This document shows positions 476-6,280 of a stretch of 64,000 nt of DNA, in pieces. The DNA lies in IMG/VR virus record IMGVR_UViG_3300026097_000010, positions 88,483-152,482 of that record; one strand, written 5' to 3'. The position numbers were made by a program, and so were the translations under genes. This DNA comes from a virus. How positions within the stretch are numbered: position 1 is the stretch's first letter; the number at the start of each line of letters is the position of its first letter. The notes under the pieces are model-generated. The model saw nothing but the letters and a program-made list of their open reading frames with translations. It searched no databases and had not been told where the DNA came from.

Positions 476-693
476 TCCTTACGCAAACCGAGTCTGAAAT
501 TAGAGATTTTTCAGAGCGTTTGGATCAAGATGCCAAGGCAATTAAAAAAGAAGCATTAAAAATGTCTTGGTATATGAGAGGAATGGGCTACTCGGAAGCT
601 ATGAATTTATCCTACGACGAACGAGAAATAGTATCAGACATTATCAAAGAAAACCTAGAAACAACTAAGAAGTCAGGACTACCGTTCTTTTAA
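472..693 (+). CDS. Small baseplate hub assembly protein, gp51-like; possible C-terminal part of a -1 frameshift product
   Basis: 73 aa, motif SWYMRG-x-YSEAMNLSYDERE; ATGA overlap with the upstream gene; lies in the -1 frame of that gene. Confidence 0.55.
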   Translation: MILTQTESEIRDFSERLDQDAKAIKKEALKMSWYMRGMGYSEAMNLSYDEREIVSDIIKENLETTKKSGLPFF

Positions 694-1520
694 GCGGTAG
701 TCGCTGTTGCTGTCTTCGGTTTTGGAGTAATCTTAGGTTGTTTTTTACCAACCTGTGAAGTCATATTGGTAAATTTTTGGTTGTAGCCCATTTGCTGTCC
801 TGCTTTTTGACCCGTTGTTGCTGTACTTGCTGTACTTGATGTAGCATCTTTTGCTGTATTTCCACCTTGAGCAGTTGTGTTCTGTGTTTGATCACCGCCT
901 TGAACATTAATATTAATGTTGTTAGGCTGTGTTGGAGACTGTTGTTGCTGTTGTTGATCTTGTCCAGAACCTTTTTTAGCGTCTAACCCTGCAATTTCTT
1001 TTTCTAGCATTTTTCTAATTTGTGCTCTTTGCTGTCCAGTTAATCCTGATAGCATATCCTGAGCTTGTTTGTAATTTGTAGCTCTGTTTGGATCCGGTTC
1101 TGGAGTTGGAGTTGGTCCAGGAGTTGGCGTTGGCGTTGGAGTCGGTCCGGGTGTTGGCGTTGGAGTCGGTCCGGGTGTTGGTGTTGGCTGTGGAGTAACT
1201 CCTTGAGTACCACCAGCTCCGCCACTTGTTCCATCAGCACCATCAGCACCATCAGCACCGTCTTTTCCAGAATCGCCATCACTTCCGCCGTCTAAGCTTG
1301 TAGTCTTGTAACCTGCTTTAACACCTTTAGTAAATGCTTTACCTAACCCTGCTAGACCTCCAATTGCGGCACCAGCACCTTTAGCAACTGTACCTGCGGC
1401 TGTGCCAGCACCTTTAACTATCTTACCACCAATTTCTTTGGCTTTATCTAGCTTAGGACCTTCTGCCAGATATTCTAGTTCGTTAATTTCAGATTCTGTT
1501 AAAAAGTCATTGAATTTCAT
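690..1520 (-). CDS. Low-complexity Gly/Thr/Pro/Gln-rich protein, putative virion (internal head) protein
   Basis: 276 aa; N-terminus MKFNDFLTESEINELEYLAE; (PT)n/PGPT and GAD repeats, poly-Q; ATGA-coupled to the upstream late gene. Confidence 0.55.
   Translation of the reverse strand: MKFNDFLTESEINELEYLAEGPKLDKAKEIGGKIVKGAGTAAGTVAKGAGAAIGGLAGLGKAFTKGVKAGYKTTSLDGGSDGDSGKDGADGADGADGTSGGAGGTQGVTPQPTPTPGPTPTPTPGPTPTPTPTPGPTPTPEPDPNRATNYKQAQDMLSGLTGQQRAQIRKMLEKEIAGLDAKKGSGQDQQQQQQSPTQPNNININVQGGDQTQNTTAQGGNTAKDATSSTASTATTGQKAGQQMGYNQKFTNMTSQVGKKQPKITPKPKTATATTA
1100..1260 (-). repeat. Coding tandem repeats (Pro-Thr/PGPT linker and GAD x3)
   Basis: Near-tandem 24-nt unit GGAGTCGGTCCGGGTGTTGGCGTT around 1138-1185, with flanking GTTGGN hexamers; CCATCAGCA x3 at 1231-1257. 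Confidence 0.85.
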
Positions 1521-3313
1521 GCTGTTGGTCCTGTTGTTTGATATCCACCTTGTTTAATTCCTGCTGGTTGGGTAGCTGGTTTCTTAGCAGGAGCTTTTGT
1601 CGTTGTAGAAGATGGTTGCGATCTACCTAGATATTTTAAAAGTCTACGCTTGTCTTTTGCTGTTAATTTGGCAATATGAGCTTTAACGTCGTTATACGAA
1701 AATCCTTGAGCGGCTTTCTTTCCACCAGCTCCGCCTGTTTGGCCAGTAGGAGATGTTTTTCCTCCAGTAGCACCACCTGTTTGGCTAGCACCACCGTCTT
1801 TTGCTTTTGTAGCATTATCTTGTTTTGCGTTAGGATCAGTTTGCTTAGGTGCCGCAGGAACTTTCAATTTCATTTGCTTGTATACTGGAGTAATTACTTC
1901 GTCGTTAACTCCTTGCTGACGTAAAAAGTTTGCCAATTCATTTGAATCTGTAGGCGATCCTGCTTTTTTCCACGCTTTGTTTAGTTTATCTGCGGTAATT
2001 TTTGTGGTTAGATTCTTGCCCATTCGTGAAAAGAAGCCAGGCTTCTTTTCTTTTTGTTCAGGCTCACCTTCGGGTGCTGGCTTAGCATCTTGCTCTGCTT
2101 CTGCTTCAGAAAGTATTTGGATTCTTTCCAGTGTGTTAAAGACCAAATAAACCTGTCCTTCACTGAGTTTAGACTTGTAAAACTCTGTGCTTTCTTTTTT
2201 AGATTCACCGTCTTGCACAGGTTCACCTTCAACTTTAACATCTTTGCTGTCAAATTTACCTTGTATTGAACCTTGTGCTAGTGCCGCGACAGCATCGTTA
2301 ACTTTAGTCATTCCTTGTAAAAACGCATCGTTCTGTTGAGCAACTTCTTTTGCTACAGCATTAATAGCATTTACATTGTCTAAGTATTCGTTAACATCGA
2401 ACGAATCAGCAAACATTGATATTTCTCTAAATGCATCTACATCACCTGCGGCTGCTTTTTCTACAAGAGCCTGTAGTTCAGGCACCATGTCTTCAGGAAC
2501 GAATATACCAAGGATTGTGTCTTTAAATGAATAACCCGGCATTTCAAGTGTGTGGGTAAGATTTACATCTACCTTGGCTATTCCAGGTGCTTTATCGTAC
2601 GGAATAACATCGGCTCTGATACCTTCTAGCCAATCGCCAATTCCTTCCAGTGCCCAACCTGCCATAGCACCATATGCAGCAGTCTTTACTGACTTACCAA
2701 CGGCTGTGGATAGTTTTTCACCTTTGAGCAATTCATTGGCCGATCTTAAAAAGAAACCAGCGGCAGCACCACCTGCTGGTCCAGCGGCAAACGCCGCGGC
2801 AGCGGTTAAAATACCAACTGCTAGACTTGCTTTTCCTGGATTGGCTTTTGCCCAATCAGAAACTGACTTGATTCTTTTTGCTACTTCGGGATTATCTGTG
2901 GAAATCTTTTTCTTTAGTTCTTCGAACTTGGCATCTATATTTTTAATAGGACCAGCATTTTGAACCATTCTGCCTAGCTCATTGATTTTATCGTCAATGG
3001 CTGATACAACTTTACCTGGTAATTTAGCGGCATCTACGCCTTTTCCTACCATGGTTCTGTTACTGCCACTTGCTGTAGCACCTTGCTCTACATTGCCAAA
3101 TATCTGTTGGATTTGATCAGCTGATAATGTTGCTTCCATTAATCGCAATTCAGCAATAAGAGGTTCAAACCCATTATAAAATTCATAAACAACTTTGCGT
3201 TGCTTGGTTGTAAGTCCACTCATTGATTCGATAAGAATCTTACGAGATTCATACATCTGTGCTTCAACAAGAGACTGTCGTGATTCTACAATTGTAACTT
3301 CATTTAGTTTCAT
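1517..3313 (-). CDS. Hypothetical 598-aa protein, putative virion/internal head protein with hydrophobic Ala/Gly segment
   Basis: Long ORF with a late-promoter-like GATAAATA just upstream. It has repeated [LIM]-x-E-[AS/G] motifs, the hydrophobic stretch LAVGILTAAAAFAAGPAGGAAAGFF and a low-complexity C-terminus. Confidence 0.6.
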   Translation of the reverse strand: MKLNEVTIVESRQSLVEAQMYESRKILIESMSGLTTKQRKVVYEFYNGFEPLIAELRLMEATLSADQIQQIFGNVEQGATASGSNRTMVGKGVDAAKLPGKVVSAIDDKINELGRMVQNAGPIKNIDAKFEELKKKISTDNPEVAKRIKSVSDWAKANPGKASLAVGILTAAAAFAAGPAGGAAAGFFLRSANELLKGEKLSTAVGKSVKTAAYGAMAGWALEGIGDWLEGIRADVIPYDKAPGIAKVDVNLTHTLEMPGYSFKDTILGIFVPEDMVPELQALVEKAAAGDVDAFREISMFADSFDVNEYLDNVNAINAVAKEVAQQNDAFLQGMTKVNDAVAALAQGSIQGKFDSKDVKVEGEPVQDGESKKESTEFYKSKLSEGQVYLVFNTLERIQILSEAEAEQDAKPAPEGEPEQKEKKPGFFSRMGKNLTTKITADKLNKAWKKAGSPTDSNELANFLRQQGVNDEVITPVYKQMKLKVPAAPKQTDPNAKQDNATKAKDGGASQTGGATGGKTSPTGQTGGAGGKKAAQGFSYNDVKAHIAKLTAKDKRRLLKYLGRSQPSSTTTKAPAKKPATQPAGIKQGGYQTTGPTA

Positions 3314-3340
3314 TTTTTATAATTCCGAAATATTATAATT

Positions 3341-3348
3341 TATTTATC
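3341..3348 (-). promoter_or_regulatory. T4 gp55-type late promoter (GATAAATA)
   Basis: Reverse complement of TATTTATC, ~27 nt upstream of the ATG at 3313; same TAAATA core as other structural-gene promoters here. Confidence 0.6.
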
Positions 3349-3361
3349 GCATATTAACTAG

Positions 3362-3846
3362 AGAACGATCTAAAGATCGTTTGCGTTATCGCTTACGCTC
3401 AACGCATTTTTTTTAATTATTAACTGCGAAGCAGTTTTAGTATTATCTAGATTGTTCGGTCATAAAGAGCCCGTTGCGGGGCTCAATATTTTCTGCACAT
3501 TATCTGAGTTGCACAGTCATAACAGCATTAGGATTATATGTATTGCTACACTCGCAGGCGGTTGGCCGATACCTGCTCATCCCGTTCGAGTTTCTAGTTG
3601 TCCAACGGCAGCCATGTATATAAAATGCTGTCTTTTATACATGACCTGGGTTTGTTCCCATCCTTAGCCTATAAAATTTTGTTCTAAACGCATCAAACTG
3701 GTTAATTAGGCATATCCAGTCATCATCATCTGGTAGTGATACGAGTCTCCGCCGTCAAACGAATATTCAATTCCCTGCGCAACTCTGGTGCCAGGTGTAA
3801 GTCCACTATAACTGCGCCAGTGGAGGCTTAATTGACGGTGTTTTGC
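3362..3846 (-). ncRNA. Candidate large structured non-coding RNA (~490 nt), family not identified
   Basis: This is the only large intergenic gap in the window and is visibly more GC-rich than nearby intergenic DNA. It has at least 10 stems: 3752-3758/3832-3838, 3802-3807/3819-3824, 3697-3701/3716-3720, 3647-3660, 3610-3646, 3554-3576, 3538-3551, 3467-3484, 3422-3436, 3382-3406 and 3364-3381. GNRA loops (GCAA, GUAA) and several G-U pairs occur on the minus strand. Confidence 0.65.
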
Positions 3847-4272
3847 CTATAATTTTTTAAGATGTTCTTTAAGAATGTTTGAACTGCCTACACGCACATT
3901 GATAATACCGTTATAGTATTCATCCGTTTCTAGTACACGCCTGTCGAATTGCTCTTTAGCCTCTAGATAACTTAATACGCCTCTGCTAGGACAAAAATGA
4001 AGGATTTCTCTTGTGAATTTGTCTGGGCCTAATGCCTTTACATCAGCATTTAGATGATCTGAAGATCCCCAATAGTCTCTCCAGTCACTTTCTACTGTGC
4101 TACGCCTTTTATTTTTTCTGCCTTTGAGTGGTGGTCTAGTTTTTTTGAATCGTGCTAGTTTTTTGCCTATGTATTTTTTATTGTTAGTAATATTTGTGAT
4201 CAGATAGACAAAGCCTTCGCAATCTTTAGGAAGTTCTTGTACTATTTGACCGTTGTAAGTCCACTCTGACAT
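3847..4272 (-). CDS. Stand-alone GIY-YIG family endonuclease (Seg-like catalytic domain only)
   Basis: GFVYLITN...KKYIGKK motif, YWGSS, conserved late Glu (LEAKEQF) and YYN; 141 aa with no appended DNA-binding domain. Confidence 0.8.
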   Translation of the reverse strand: MSEWTYNGQIVQELPKDCEGFVYLITNITNNKKYIGKKLARFKKTRPPLKGRKNKRRSTVESDWRDYWGSSDHLNADVKALGPDKFTREILHFCPSRGVLSYLEAKEQFDRRVLETDEYYNGIINVRVGSSNILKEHLKKL

Positions 4273-4277
4273 CAGAC

Positions 4278-4505
4278 TTACTTAGTTTTCTTCGGTCTCC
4301 CTACCATGCCTTTTCTGGCGGCCTTTCGCGCTTCACGCTTTGCTTGTATTTCTTTGCGCCTCTCGGAAGCATGGTTTCTAATTTCACTCAGCCAAAAACG
4401 TGCTTTAATACCTGCTTCGTCAGAGCCTTTGTATTCAAAGTTTGTTTGCCATTTGAAGTATTCTTGGAATGCTTCAATCATTTTATCGTGACTGTCAGTG
4501 GCCAT
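4278..4505 (-). CDS. Small basic protein, histone H1-like (Hc1-type) candidate
   Basis: 75 aa; KG-x-x-EAGIKAR-x-x-L-x-EI...RKE helix resembles the Hc1 N-terminal domain; basic tail ends GRPKKTK. Confidence 0.5.
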   Translation of the reverse strand: MATDSHDKMIEAFQEYFKWQTNFEYKGSDEAGIKARFWLSEIRNHASERRKEIQAKREARKAARKGMVGRPKKTK

Positions 4506-6280
4506 TACACTATATCTACATCCGTTGAGTAGGAAGTGAATCCGTTTTCCTTGATCACTTTCAGAACTTGGCTGACTCTATTAGTTAAGTCATCTCTGTG
4601 AGATATTAAAAACACATTTTTGTCACGCTCACGGGTCATCTTTTTCAGCACACTTATGCTGTTTTCAACACCGTTCGCATCTAATCCGTTGTCAATCAGT
4701 TCGTCAATGAACAACAGGTTGATCGAGTGATACAGATTTTCCCACACATCTCTAAACGCAAAACTTAAAGACAGGATTAATCTGTTGCGTTCACCTCTTG
4801 ATAGATTGTCAAAATCTAAATCCTGACCTAACTGTGTGATAATCACGCTGAGGTCATTTTGAAACTCCACTAGATGTGGCAGACCTGTCTTGTTCAAATA
4901 GTATGTAAGACGTTGATTTAAAAATGCAAGATTCTGATCGATAATGCGTTTGCGAATATAACTGTCCTTGTTGGTAAGCAGTTTGTATAAAAACTCTTGA
5001 TGCTCTTTGATCCGAGTAAGTTCATTGACAGTGTCCCAGTTAATTTCTTGCATTGCACTGTCTTTCAGTTCTGCAATTTGATCGTCGTAAGGATTGGTTT
5101 CTGTGTTTTTGTTCTCTAATTCTTTTTCTAATCCGTCAATCGTTGCTCTATGATTAAGAGCTTCTTCTAACGTACTGTATTCTACACTGGGACAATCACC
5201 GAGTTCTCCAATCAAAGACAGTGCTTCATTATAATCTCCAAGCTCACTAGACTGTGTATCCACACGCTTTTGATAGTCAGCAACCTGCTCTGCTTTTTTC
5301 TCAACCATCGATTCGTGCTGATCGTCGTGAACTTCTTGACCGCAAGCGTGGCACTTGTGATCTGCCAGTTTTTCCAATTCGATTTGCAATTTGTCTAAAT
5401 GACGTTGATCATTTTCTACCTGTGTAACCAATCTTGCGACTGTTTTTTCAAGCTGATCTTTTTCTCTCTTGTGTTCACGCCATTGCTGTAGTGCTTTTTG
5501 TTTTTCAATTTCTACATCAATATCAATATGATCCAAGACAGAAATACTCTGTGCAATGTCTTTGAGAGACTGTGCTTTGTTATCATCCCACATACGCTTC
5601 TTGCGTTCAAGGCTTTCGATGCTTTGTTGTATACGTTCGTTTGATGCTTTAATTGCTTCAATTTTGGTAGTTTCTGTCTGTATTTCGTCTTTGGTAAATT
5701 TAATCTGTTCTTTGAGATTTTCTGCTTTTTCTGAAAGCATAGTAATACCCAGTAACTGTTCAATGATAGCTCGTTGGTCATTACTTCGCATACTCAAAAA
5801 CGGTTCAGTATATGTGTTCAATGCCACAAGATGCTTGAACATATCGTGACTCATTCCGAACAGTTCTTCGATAGACTTTTGTGTTTCTCGGCTATCGCCT
5901 TGACTTTCGTCAGCATCTTCGGGTGTGTGTTCGTGACCGTTTACACTTAATTTTAGAAAATTGGGTTTGCGTCCACGTTCAATATGATATTCAACGCCGT
6001 CCTTTTCAAAGGAACATGTAACCAGCATATTCTTGCCATTGATTTTGTTAATAAGATTGTCTTTTTTAATATTAGTCAATGCAGAACCGTAAATGGCATA
6101 AGAAAGCCCGTTCACAATGGTAGTTTTACCTGTTCCGTTTCTAGCACCACCATCATCGCCTCCTAGATCTAAGTTCTCACCTAACACCAAAGTAAGATGA
6201 CCTTTATCAAAATCAATAGCCTGCGTTTGATTGCCCACACTCATAAAATTTTGTACTGTTAGTGTCTTGATTTTAATCAT
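4505..6280 (-). CDS. gp46: Recombination endonuclease ATPase subunit (T4 gp46 / SbcC / Rad50-like)
   Basis: Walker A NGTGKTT, coiled coil with zinc hook CHAC, signature LSRGE, Walker B LFIDE, H-loop ISHR. Confidence 0.95.
   Translation of the reverse strand: MIKIKTLTVQNFMSVGNQTQAIDFDKGHLTLVLGENLDLGGDDGGARNGTGKTTIVNGLSYAIYGSALTNIKKDNLINKINGKNMLVTCSFEKDGVEYHIERGRKPNFLKLSVNGHEHTPEDADESQGDSRETQKSIEELFGMSHDMFKHLVALNTYTEPFLSMRSNDQRAIIEQLLGITMLSEKAENLKEQIKFTKDEIQTETTKIEAIKASNERIQQSIESLERKKRMWDDNKAQSLKDIAQSISVLDHIDIDVEIEKQKALQQWREHKREKDQLEKTVARLVTQVENDQRHLDKLQIELEKLADHKCHACGQEVHDDQHESMVEKKAEQVADYQKRVDTQSSELGDYNEALSLIGELGDCPSVEYSTLEEALNHRATIDGLEKELENKNTETNPYDDQIAELKDSAMQEINWDTVNELTRIKEHQEFLYKLLTNKDSYIRKRIIDQNLAFLNQRLTYYLNKTGLPHLVEFQNDLSVIITQLGQDLDFDNLSRGERNRLILSLSFAFRDVWENLYHSINLLFIDELIDNGLDANGVENSISVLKKMTRERDKNVFLISHRDDLTNRVSQVLKVIKENGFTSYSTDVDIV

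What the first reader, a model, noticed from the sequence alone, without database searches (positions are those of the whole stretch)
3362..4272. Minimal GIY-YIG nuclease followed immediately by a ~490-nt ornate structured RNA: candidate RNA-partnered nuclease system
Seen: the only large non-coding gap in 64 kb starts at the GIY-YIG stop codon (3847) and is packed with helices. A long-range stem (CCGUCAA/UUGACGG) encloses a UCCACU/AGUGGA hairpin. Further stems are ACUGG/CCAGU, UGGG/CCCA, a ~37-nt hairpin with two G-U pairs (3610-3646), GCAGGU..CGG-CCAA-CCG..GCCUGC, GUGUA-GCAA-UACAU, GAGCCC/GGGCUC and UGCGUU..GC-GUAA-GC..AACGCA. The GNRA loops and most wobble pairs work on the minus strand, the same strand as the nuclease. 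The nuclease is only the catalytic domain plus a basic insert (RFKKTRPPLKGRKNKRR) and lacks the DNA-binding modules of I-TevI/Seg homing enzymes. Known: compact nucleases paired with large structured RNAs exist (IscB/HEARO-omegaRNA, TnpB), and phages carry large ornate RNAs (GOLLD, ROOL). Inference: this RNA may supply specificity or scaffolding to a GIY-YIG nuclease, a pairing I do not recognise as described, or it may be an independent phage ncRNA.
Basis: partly seen in the sequence, partly recalled or inferred. Interest (0 to 1): 0.88.

Follow-up and report, generated by a model that had tools for sequence, protein, structure and literature searches.

The report
Extended Polynucleobacter-1 twin-box phage RNA
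The gene-free stretch behind a small nuclease gene of this uncultured T4-like phage encodes a real, roughly 480-base, doubly knotted non-coding RNA. Its first third is the catalogued but unexplained Polynucleobacter-1 motif. The RNA goes with the genomic locus and not with the nuclease, so it is probably not the nuclease's guide, and its job is still unknown.

Summary
Window 3364-3846 (minus strand) is the only ORF-free gap over 300 nt. It is a conserved structured RNA directly behind a 141-aa SegE-type GIY-YIG gene.

The 5' third is Rfam RF01718 (Polynucleobacter-1, 95.7 bits). Weinberg et al. 2010 already placed that motif downstream of this gene family, without recognising the gene as a nuclease.

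The rest is not in Rfam. It holds a middle domain with a loop-to-strand pseudoknot and a 3' module with two identical 7-nt words (AGAUAAU here). The two words differ between phages but were identical in 91 of 91 relatives.

The RNA-partnered-nuclease reading is not supported:
- The RNA follows the gp46-orf75-nuclease locus (79 of 81 loci). Nuclease genes of 77-83% identity in other contexts mostly lack it (13 of 20).
- Six complete cultured phage genomes carry the nuclease but neither RNA part.
- One relative has a PD-(D/E)XK nuclease in place of GIY-YIG before the same RNA.
- Nuclease identity tracks neither RNA type nor word.

I found no reader of the words. This scan has met the same RNA family many times on other DNA.

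The parts
3847..4272 (-). SegE-type GIY-YIG nuclease gene (141 aa, catalytic domain only); upstream neighbour of the RNA and not shown to be part of its function
   Evidence: Pfam PF19835 at 1.6e-35 covering the whole model. PHROG 447, whose name 'NAD synthetase' is a misnomer. The GIY Tyr, YIG Tyr/Gly, Arg, Glu and Asn are conserved in at least 97% of 91 homologues.
3364..3846 (-). Whole structured RNA, about 483 nt, from just after the nuclease stop codon to the end of the last hairpin
   Evidence: Full length is conserved at 71-85% identity in IMG/VR contigs. A profile hits about 60 full-length relatives. Covariation supports the fold.
3686..3828 (-). 5' domain, the Rfam Polynucleobacter-1 motif (RF01718)
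   Evidence: cmscan gives 95.7 bits, E 2.4e-19, model positions 1-141 of 141. It is the only copy in the 152-kb record.
3832..3838 (-). Pseudoknot PK1, 5' strand (CCGUCAA), upstream of the Rfam model
   Evidence: It pairs with 3752-3758. All 7 pairs show changes on both sides and 84.5% of cells are paired (helix 1).
3752..3758 (-). Pseudoknot PK1, 3' strand (UUGACGG), in the loop of the third Rfam hairpin
   Evidence: helix 1
3611..3645 (-). Long hairpin P8 of the middle domain
   Evidence: All 12 pairs show compensatory change and 85.5% of cells are paired (helix 9).
3624..3631 (-). Pseudoknot PK2, loop strand (ACAGCAUU)
   Evidence: It pairs with 3522-3529. 91.5% of cells are paired and 6 of 8 pairs show changes on both sides (helix 10). 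Weinberg's alignment already draws it as SS_cons_1.
3522..3529 (-). Pseudoknot PK2, downstream strand (AAUGCUGU)
   Evidence: helix 10
3554..3576 (-). Hairpin P10 with the near-invariant GGUAYCGG-NNNA-CCGCC core
   Evidence: The outer stem is 99.4% paired (helices 12-13). Its columns are invariant in A2.
3499..3505 (-). Twin word, copy 1 (AGAUAAU), after ACUC and in the loop of hairpin 3493-3516
   Evidence: Identical to copy 2 in 91 of 91 relatives at word positions 0-5, while positions 0, 1 and 4 vary between phages. Coordinates.
3467..3484 (-). GC-rich hairpin P13 between the two words
   Evidence: 95.7% of cells are paired and 4 of 6 pairs show compensatory change (helix 16).
3442..3448 (-). 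Twin word, copy 2 (AGAUAAU), after AAUCU
3423..3435 (-). Hairpin P14 with the conserved GCUUCGC centre
   Evidence: (helices 17-18)
3383..3405 (-). Hairpin P15 with the conserved UGAGCG-NNAG-CGA centre (GNRA-type loop flanked by GA/GA)
   Evidence: All 5 outer pairs show compensatory change (helix 19). Its sequence is conserved across all RNA types.
3364..3381 (-). Last hairpin P16, likely terminator of the unit (U tract weak here, clear in most relatives)
   Evidence: 92% of cells are paired (helix 22). It is followed by UUUU in most homologues. The window's own copy was not called a terminator by the scan.
3340..3348 (-). GAUAAAUAA, a T4 late-promoter-like word before the next gene (ORF 1517-3313); it marks the end of the RNA unit
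   Evidence: UAAAUA is conserved 10-20 nt after P16 in most relatives (columns 701-707). The comparison with the T4 late promoter TATAAATA is from my own knowledge.

Best explanation
What it is: a full-length member of a large structured non-coding RNA family of uncultured aquatic T4-like phages. Its 5' 140 nt are the Rfam motif Polynucleobacter-1. The middle domain, with a loop-strand pseudoknot, was drawn in Weinberg's 2010 supplementary alignment. The 3' 'twin-box' module is uncatalogued.

Shown:
- The fold, two pseudoknots, the strand and the position in a conserved gp46-orf75-nuclease-RNA-late gene locus.
- Two identical 7-nt words that change in parallel between phages.
- Absence of the RNA from phages that carry the nuclease elsewhere in the genome.

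Inferred:
- The RNA is made as the 3' end of the early or middle transcript that also encodes the nuclease. No promoter-like site lies between them, and the unit ends at a hairpin-U tract before a late-promoter-like word.
- It acts on its own as a compact scaffold or decoy that presents the same short word twice to two copies, or a dimer, of an outside reader, most likely a protein. This resembles the way CsrB/RsmZ-type RNAs present repeated motifs to a dimeric protein.
- The nuclease is a neighbour and not a subunit.
For: Identity:
- RF01718 scores 95.7 bits over the full model.
- The upstream gene is the family Weinberg named: PSSM2_218 is the P-SSM2 homologue.

Structure:
- 74.9% of cells are paired against 63.1% in shuffles, and the covariation score is 0.316 against 0.147 shuffled and 0.07-0.12 slid.
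- PK1, P8, PK2, P10, P13, P15 and P16 each show many two-sided changes.

The RNA follows the locus and not the nuclease:
- 86 of 101 distinct nuclease loci carry the module. That is 79 of 81 when gp46 lies upstream and 7 of 20 otherwise.
- Six complete cultured phage genomes with 44-81% identical nucleases have neither RF01718 nor the module model R1. The window's own genome is the positive control.
- L131 has a PDDEXK_15 nuclease before the same RNA.
- A nuclease 86% identical (L003) precedes a different 5' domain, while one 50% identical (L122) precedes the same type as here.

Twin words:
- Identical in 91 of 91 relatives at positions 0-5, with three variable positions. Mutual information between the two copies is 0.93-1.06 bits, and no other column exceeds 0.57.
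- Identical in 39 of 39 type-1 RNAs.
- No complement occurs in cis (12 of 93 against 3 controls, no common place) or nearby (0.36 against 0.37 per locus).

Transcription unit:
- No minus-strand promoter-like site lies in 3200-4600.
- The conserved AGGCAAAAUAA leader overlaps the nuclease stop codon in many relatives.
- A terminal hairpin plus U tract is followed by UAAAUA.
Against: - Expression, RNA ends and processing are therefore unshown for this window.
- No reader of the words was identified, so 'protein dimer' is an argument by exclusion and analogy.
- Within its own lineage the RNA was never seen without a small nuclease gene directly upstream (GIY-YIG, or PD-(D/E)XK once). A functional tie to 'a nuclease' is therefore not excluded.
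- Helices P1, P2 and P4 scored poorly on the MAFFT alignment (29-54% paired). I attribute this to register errors, since they belong to the Rfam model, but I did not realign to prove it.
Confidence: 0.55

Rival explanations
1. RNA-partnered nuclease. The RNA binds the small nuclease encoded just upstream and gives it target choice, scaffolding or regulation, forming a new ribonucleoprotein nuclease.
For: - The RNA starts within 10 nt of, or overlapping, the nuclease stop codon on the same strand.
- 12 of 12 true pattern hits lie directly behind a GIY-YIG homologue.
- 79 of 81 syntenic loci keep the pair.
- The protein is a bare catalytic domain without a DNA-binding module.
- When GIY-YIG is missing, another small nuclease takes its place.
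Against: - Nucleases 77-83% identical in other contexts mostly lack the RNA (13 of 20).
- Six cultured phages have the nuclease but not the RNA, and 827 phage records carry a homologue.
- Nuclease identity tracks neither RNA type nor word.
- Mutual information between protein columns and word positions is no higher than for the gp46 control.
- There is no long variable guide segment. The 7-nt words have no complement nearby and are not enriched in the genome.
Confidence: 0.07
2. Cis-acting 3' UTR. The structure serves only the mRNA that carries it, for example as a 3' exonuclease block, as a processing platform, or as a site through which the operon's expression is tuned.
For: - No promoter-like site lies between the gene and the RNA.
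- The RNA sits at the 3' end of an early or middle gene block and ends in a terminator-like hairpin.
- Its leader overlaps the stop codon.
Against: About 480 nt with two pseudoknots, near-invariant loops and two co-varying words is far more than 3' protection needs. Other phages express the same nuclease gene without it.
Confidence: 0.15
3. Selfish-nuclease parking. The GIY-YIG and PD-(D/E)XK genes are mobile, homing-type genes that sit next to a conserved RNA gene whose sequence they target in rival genomes. The adjacency then reflects homing and not joint function. This reading is compatible with the best explanation for the RNA itself.
For: - Two GIY-YIG clades (about 70-99% and about 50-54% identical) and one PD-(D/E)XK gene occupy the same slot in phages with similar gp46.
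- In cultured phages the homologue sits in varied contexts, often as a lone gene opposed to its neighbours.
- T4 Seg enzymes behave this way (my own knowledge).
Against: - No nuclease-free 'empty' RNA locus was seen among about 87 loci.
- The protein lacks the DNA-binding domain that Seg and I-TevI use to find a site.
- Cleavage specificity is untested.
Confidence: 0.13
4. DNA-level element. The twin words and hairpins act in DNA, as a replication origin, packaging site or recombination site.
For: Two identical direct words with parallel change resemble iterons or recombination cores. Several hairpins look like plus-strand terminators.
Against: - Pairs are kept through G-U and compensatory changes on one strand only, and the fold z-score favours the minus strand.
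- The Rfam covariance model matches.
- The word is not enriched or clustered elsewhere in the genome.
Confidence: 0.03
5. Ribozyme or intron remnant. The RNA is a self-cleaving or self-splicing element, such as the core of a group I intron that once carried the nuclease ORF.
For: GIY-YIG ORFs are classic passengers of group I introns (my own knowledge). The size and the pseudoknots fit a ribozyme.
Against: - No group I, group II or small-ribozyme family scores at E of 5 or below.
- The flanking genes are intact and not split.
- The ORF starts 5 nt after orf75, which leaves no 5' intron half.
Confidence: 0.03

Closest known systems
Polynucleobacter-1 RNA motif (Rfam RF01718; Weinberg et al. 2010, Genome Biol 11:R31, PMC2864571)
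   Same: The 5' 143 nt match the full model at 95.7 bits. The gene context is the same, downstream of the GOS11034/PSSM2_218 family. The middle domain and its pseudoknot appear in the paper's supplementary alignment, and the 2010 flanks already contain twin words (for example GGAUGAU twice).
   Different: - Rfam models only the first 141 positions.
- The paper found no copy in any purified phage and did not recognise the upstream gene as a GIY-YIG nuclease.
- The 3' twin-word module, hairpin P15 and the terminator are not described.
- Function is unknown in both.
GOLLD (RF01998) and ROOL (RF03087), large ornate RNAs of phages and prophages
   Same: These are several-hundred-nt, multi-pseudoknot RNAs carried by phages, with no known function and no coding role.
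   Different: There is no sequence or structure match, and the architecture differs. Twin parallel-varying words are not a described feature of either (my own knowledge).
IscB/HEARO omega-RNA and TnpB omega-RNA (RNA-guided nucleases)
   Same: A compact nuclease gene lies next to a large structured RNA on the same strand.
   Different: - In those systems the nuclease never occurs without its RNA, the RNA carries a long variable guide, and the nuclease is RuvC/HNH.
- Here the nuclease is GIY-YIG and often occurs alone, it can be swapped for a PD-(D/E)XK enzyme, and no guide segment exists.
T4 Seg free-standing GIY-YIG endonucleases (SegA-G) and I-TevI
   Same: The catalytic domain belongs to the same family (PF19835, SegE type). 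The gene is a small phage gene that moves between contexts.
   Different: It has only 141 aa and no C-terminal DNA-binding domain. It holds a fixed syntenic slot behind gp46 in this lineage. Homing was not tested.
CsrB/RsmZ-type protein-sponge RNAs (comparison of mechanism only)
   Same: A structured RNA shows the same short single-stranded motif more than once, as needed to engage a dimeric reader.
   Different: There is no GGA motif and no CsrA-type partner is known. Only two sites are present, embedded in a large knotted fold. The likeness is an inference from my own knowledge, not a tested relationship.

Membership tests
Rfam RF01718 Polynucleobacter-1 | Covariance-model score above the curated gathering cut-off over the whole model | tested here: met
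   95.7 bits against a cut-off of 37, E 2.4e-19, positions 1-141 of 141
Rfam RF01718 Polynucleobacter-1 | Position downstream of a GOS11034/PSSM2_218-type gene, on the same strand | tested here: met
   The P-SSM2 homologue of the upstream ORF is PSSM2_218.
Rfam RF01718 Polynucleobacter-1 | 3' 'tail' with hairpins and a loop-strand pseudoknot, as drawn in the 2010 alignment | tested here: met
   P7, P8, P10 and PK2 are present and covary.
SegE-type GIY-YIG nuclease domain (Pfam PF19835) | Profile score above the cut-off and conserved catalytic residues (GIY Tyr, YIG Tyr, Arg, Glu, Asn) | tested here: met
   122.4 bits against a cut-off of 25. The residues are conserved in at least 97% of 91 homologues.
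Seg/I-TevI-type homing endonuclease | DNA-binding domain joined to the catalytic domain | tested here: not met
   The protein has 141 aa, the Pfam catalytic domain spans residues 4-124, and there is no second domain.
Seg/I-TevI-type homing endonuclease | Site-specific cleavage of nuclease-free alleles and biased inheritance | not testable with these tools
   This needs cleavage assays and co-infection.
RNA-guided nuclease systems (IscB/TnpB type) | The nuclease is always accompanied by its RNA | tested here: not met
   13 of 20 out-of-locus nuclease genes and six cultured phage genomes lack the RNA.
RNA-guided nuclease systems (IscB/TnpB type) | A variable guide segment of about 15 nt or more, joined to a constant scaffold | tested here: not met
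   The only fast-changing conserved-position elements are two 7-nt words. The long variable insert at 3530-3553 is a hairpin of variable length.
RNA-guided nuclease systems (IscB/TnpB type) | Physical RNA-protein complex and RNA-dependent cleavage | not testable with these tools
   This needs biochemistry.
Group I intron | Match to the intron core model and an interrupted host gene | tested here: not met
   No intron family scores at E of 5 or below. Both flanking ORFs are intact.
GOLLD / ROOL | Match to the family covariance model | tested here: not met
   No hit at gathering score or at E of 5 or below.

The most novel reading that the evidence does not exclude
The RNA is a nuclease-agnostic partner. 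It recruits or restrains whichever small structure- or sequence-specific nuclease is encoded directly upstream (GIY-YIG in most phages, PD-(D/E)XK in some). The two identical words mark two equivalent docking or target-mimic sites. If so, this would be a new kind of RNA-nuclease system in the recombination gene block of T4-like phages.
Probability: 0.07. Interest if true: 0.9.

Novelty: new variant of a known kind. Interest (0 to 1): 0.5.

Why it matters
Large, intricately folded RNAs without a known job are rare. Each one solved so far, such as ribozymes, riboswitches and the omega-RNA guides, opened a field.

This RNA is common in uncultured aquatic T4-like phages. It has been a 140-nt orphan entry in Rfam since 2010, yet it is really about 480 nt long with two pseudoknots. 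Its two short words stay identical to each other while changing between phages, which points to an outside reader that binds twice and is a mechanism not yet described.

Showing that the neighbouring nuclease is not required for the RNA to exist, and the reverse, redirects experiments.

For database curation, the result argues for extending RF01718. It also argues for correcting the widespread 'NAD synthetase' label on the nuclease family.

Tried and rejected
1. Word as a promoter-like or other genomic DNA motif. AGATAAT occurs 34 and 31 times in the 152-kb record, against about 28 expected per strand. It ranks 21st of 105 same-composition 7-mers. The extended contexts are unique to the RNA apart from three coding-region hits. 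Close pairs occur no more often than chance. Rejected.
2. Cis partner for the words. A 6-nt complement lies upstream in 12 of 93 RNAs against 3 controls, with no shared position. The counts are 0 and 3 in the middle and downstream parts. No column of the module or of the type-1 alignment covaries with the word beyond its twin. Rejected.
3. Nearby trans target. Complements in the flanking 5-8 kb occur at 0.36 per locus against 0.37 for foreign words. Rejected.
4. Reader is orf75 or the GIY-YIG protein. Mutual information between protein columns and word positions is no higher than for the gp46 control (note that the word index was offset by two columns in that run). Inconclusive, and no support.
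5. Words as ends of mini-ORFs (sense codon plus UAA/UGA). An in-frame start is present in 42 of 86 (module 1) and 50 of 86 (module 2), none in 19, and 1-nt indels break the frame. Rejected as a general feature. The U-R-A core remains an unexplained pattern.
6. tRNA pairing. There are no tRNA genes in the window or in the 152-kb record. The complement of the word does not fit anticodon-loop rules (reasoning only).
7. Bacterial chromosomal copies. My single genome-contig scan used too loose a pattern. All 120 stretches it returned were chance matches. The Polynucleobacter chromosome copy reported in 2010 could not be re-examined.
9. blastn of the RNA against 50,697 phage records gave no match.
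10. PDB sequence search of the nuclease gave no hit.
11. RNAalifold on raw MAFFT alignments recovered few helices, so I used a hand-built structure instead.
Full report
THE REGION
The window is part of a 152-kb IMG/VR virus record that CheckV rates at 42% complete. The gene order is that of a T4-like phage, all on the minus strand: a gp55-like ORF, a Mre11-like gp47 (Metallophos), a Rad50-like gp46 (AAA_23/SMC_N), a 75-aa ORF, and a 141-aa ORF at 3847-4272. A 533-nt ORF-free stretch follows (3314-3846), then a 598-aa ORF. The two other stretches lacking ORFs of 100 aa or more are filled by tightly packed 83-97-aa ORFs.

THE NUCLEASE
The 141-aa protein matches Pfam PF19835 (SegE-type GIY-YIG domain) at 1.6e-35 over the entire model. 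The basic stretch RFKK...KNKRR therefore belongs to the family and is not an insert. The protein falls in PHROG 447, which carries the propagated misnomer 'NAD synthetase'. The motif residues are conserved in at least 97% of 91 homologues. There is no second domain. tblastn finds homologues in 827 phage records, mostly cyanomyoviruses and other T4-like phages.

THE RNA IS PARTLY KNOWN
Rfam's only match in the 64-kb window at gathering score is RF01718, Polynucleobacter-1, at 3686-3828(-). It scores 95.7 bits with full model coverage. A permissive scan of the gap adds nothing credible.

The describing paper (Weinberg et al. 2010, PMC2864571, supplement) says that most of these RNAs lie downstream of genes of family GOS11034, with possible homology to PSSM2_218 of cyanophage P-SSM2. 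It also says that the 3' half is not always detected, and that no copy was found in any purified phage. The P-SSM2 homologue of the window's nuclease is PSSM2_218. The RNA-gene adjacency is therefore a published observation, although the gene was not recognised as a GIY-YIG nuclease.

The paper's Stockholm file draws a 'tail' with further hairpins and one pseudoknot. These correspond to my P7, P8, P10 and PK2.

THE RNA IS LONGER
blastn of the whole gap finds full-length conservation (71-85%) in several IMG/VR contigs. Profiles built from these find about 60 full-length relatives.

I placed 21 helices, taken from the window's sequence, on a 39-sequence alignment (A2):
- 74.9% of cells pair, against 63.1 +/- 0.4 in shuffles (0 of 500 reach the observed value).
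- 81 of 107 pairs show changes on both sides.
- The covariation score is 0.316, against 0.147 shuffled and 0.07-0.12 with slid partners.

The best-supported helices are:
- PK1, the leader just after the stop codon paired with the loop of the third Rfam hairpin. It is 84.5% paired, with two-sided change at 7 of 7 pairs.
- The long hairpin P8, with two-sided change at 12 of 12 pairs.
- PK2, 91.5% paired.
- P10, 99.4% paired.
- P13, 95.7% paired.
- P15.
- The terminal hairpin P16, 92% paired.

P1, P2 and P4 score poorly on this MAFFT alignment. They are part of the Rfam model, so I read this as register error. The minus strand folds better than shuffles (z = -3.49) and the plus strand does not (z = -1.44).

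THE 3' MODULE AND ITS TWIN WORDS
A 3' module is shared even by relatives whose 5' and middle domains are different structured sequences; at least three other types occur. The module holds two similar units of about 27 nt, each ending in a 7-nt word. In the window the word is AGAUAAU, at 3499-3505 and 3442-3448.

Across 92 distinct modules the two words are identical at positions 0-5 in 91 of 91 scorable cases. Meanwhile positions 0 (A/G), 1 (C/G/A) and 4 (A/G) vary between phages. Mutual information between the twin columns is 0.93-1.06 bits, and no other column exceeds 0.57. The same holds in 39 of 39 type-1 RNAs. I saw this before consulting earlier notes of this scan, which describe the same 'twin boxes' on many other genomes.

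DOES THE RNA BELONG TO THE NUCLEASE?

For a link:
- All 12 genuine hits of an RNA pattern in IMG/VR lie directly behind a GIY-YIG homologue of 52-99% identity. The other 3 hits are chance matches in a coding region.
- The order gp46-orf75-nuclease-RNA is kept in 79 of 81 loci.

Against a link:
- Of 20 distinct loci where a 77-83% identical nuclease is not preceded by gp46, 13 lack the module.
- Six complete cultured phage genomes carry homologues of 44-81% identity: Melnitz-1, P-SSM2, S-SRM01, V45v66, ACP17 and B23. There the gene sits in unrelated contexts with gaps of 0-148 nt behind it. Neither RF01718 nor my module model R1 matches anywhere in those genomes, while both find the window's copy.
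- In L131 the slot before a type-1 RNA holds a 188-aa PDDEXK_15 protein (PHROG 'RusA-like resolvase') instead of GIY-YIG.
- Nuclease similarity does not follow RNA type. L003, at 86% identity, precedes another 5' domain. L122, at 50% identity, precedes the window's type.
- Protein columns do not track the word better than the gp46 control does.

WHO READS THE WORDS?
I found no answer.
- The word is not enriched or clustered in the 152-kb record.
- It has no complement within the RNA or in the flanking 5-8 kb.
- It does not consistently end a mini-ORF.
- The record encodes no tRNA.

Two identical, exposed, fast-changing words with no cis partner fit best with an outside reader that binds twice, most simply a dimeric protein. 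That step is inference.

THE TRANSCRIPTION UNIT
No promoter-like site lies on the minus strand between 3200 and 4600. A conserved AGGCAAAAUAA leader overlaps the nuclease stop codon in many relatives. In most relatives the last hairpin is followed by a U tract and then UAAAUA, which resembles the T4 late promoter, before the next gene. The RNA is therefore most likely the 3' end of the nuclease's transcript, possibly processed. Expression could not be checked.

VERDICT
The element is a member of a known but unexplained RNA family whose true extent is about three times the catalogued motif. The RNA-guided or RNA-partnered nuclease idea is unlikely, at about 7%. Function is unknown. My working model is a bivalent scaffold or decoy for an unidentified reader. 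This scan has met the same family repeatedly on other DNA. What this window adds is one more full-length example, the locus-versus-nuclease count, and the negative tests for a reader.

Noticed in passing
L131:5517-6083 (IMG/VR contig 3300022935_000194): In this relative a 188-aa PD-(D/E)XK protein (Pfam PDDEXK_15, PHROG 'RusA-like Holliday junction resolvase') replaces the GIY-YIG gene between orf75 and the RNA. Displacement by a resolvase-type enzyme next to the gp46/gp47 recombination genes hints that the small GIY-YIG protein may itself be a recombination-junction nuclease and not a homing enzyme.
   Followed up: partly
window 3847-4272 and RefSeq phage records: Homologues of this GIY-YIG protein are labelled 'NAD synthetase' in dozens of RefSeq and GenBank phage records and in PHROG 447. 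The Pfam match and the conserved catalytic residues show that the label is wrong.
   Followed up: partly
loci L003, L153, L172; L038, L055, L060, L068, L129, L132; L014; L033: Behind closely related nuclease genes the same 3' twin-word module is preceded by at least three other, mutually unrelated structured 5'/middle domains of 200-380 nt. The family is therefore modular, and Polynucleobacter-1 is only one of several heads.
   Followed up: partly
window 3441-3468 and 3498-3525 (minus strand): The duplication extends beyond the 7-nt words. Both units read UUAUGAC, then 10 nt, then the word. In the window each can be read as a 6-codon mini-ORF (MTVQLR*, MTEQSR*), and the word's core U-R-A is always UAA or UGA. 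The ORFs are not conserved across the family (about half of members), so this is probably coincidence, but the U-R-A rule is unexplained.
   Followed up: yes
window 3383-3405 (minus strand): Hairpin P15 keeps the sequence UGAGCG-NNAG-CGA in all RNA types: two GA steps flanking a 2-bp stem with a GNRA-type loop. This is more sequence conservation than a plain stem needs. It could be a protein-binding or kink-type motif just before the terminator.
   Followed up: no
window 690-3313 (minus strand): The two genes after the RNA (598 aa and 276 aa) have no Pfam or PHROG match. They are rich in low-complexity Ala/Gly and Pro/Thr/Gln tracts. The first is preceded by a late-promoter-like GAUAAAUAA, so they are probably late (virion or lysis-stage) proteins.
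   Followed up: no
loci L122, L124, L126, L141, L144-L151, L155, L162 versus L099-L121: Two GIY-YIG clades, about 70% and about 50-54% identical to the window's protein, occupy the same slot in phages whose gp46 proteins are equally similar (62-73%). The nuclease gene has therefore been exchanged more often than its flanks.
   Followed up: partly
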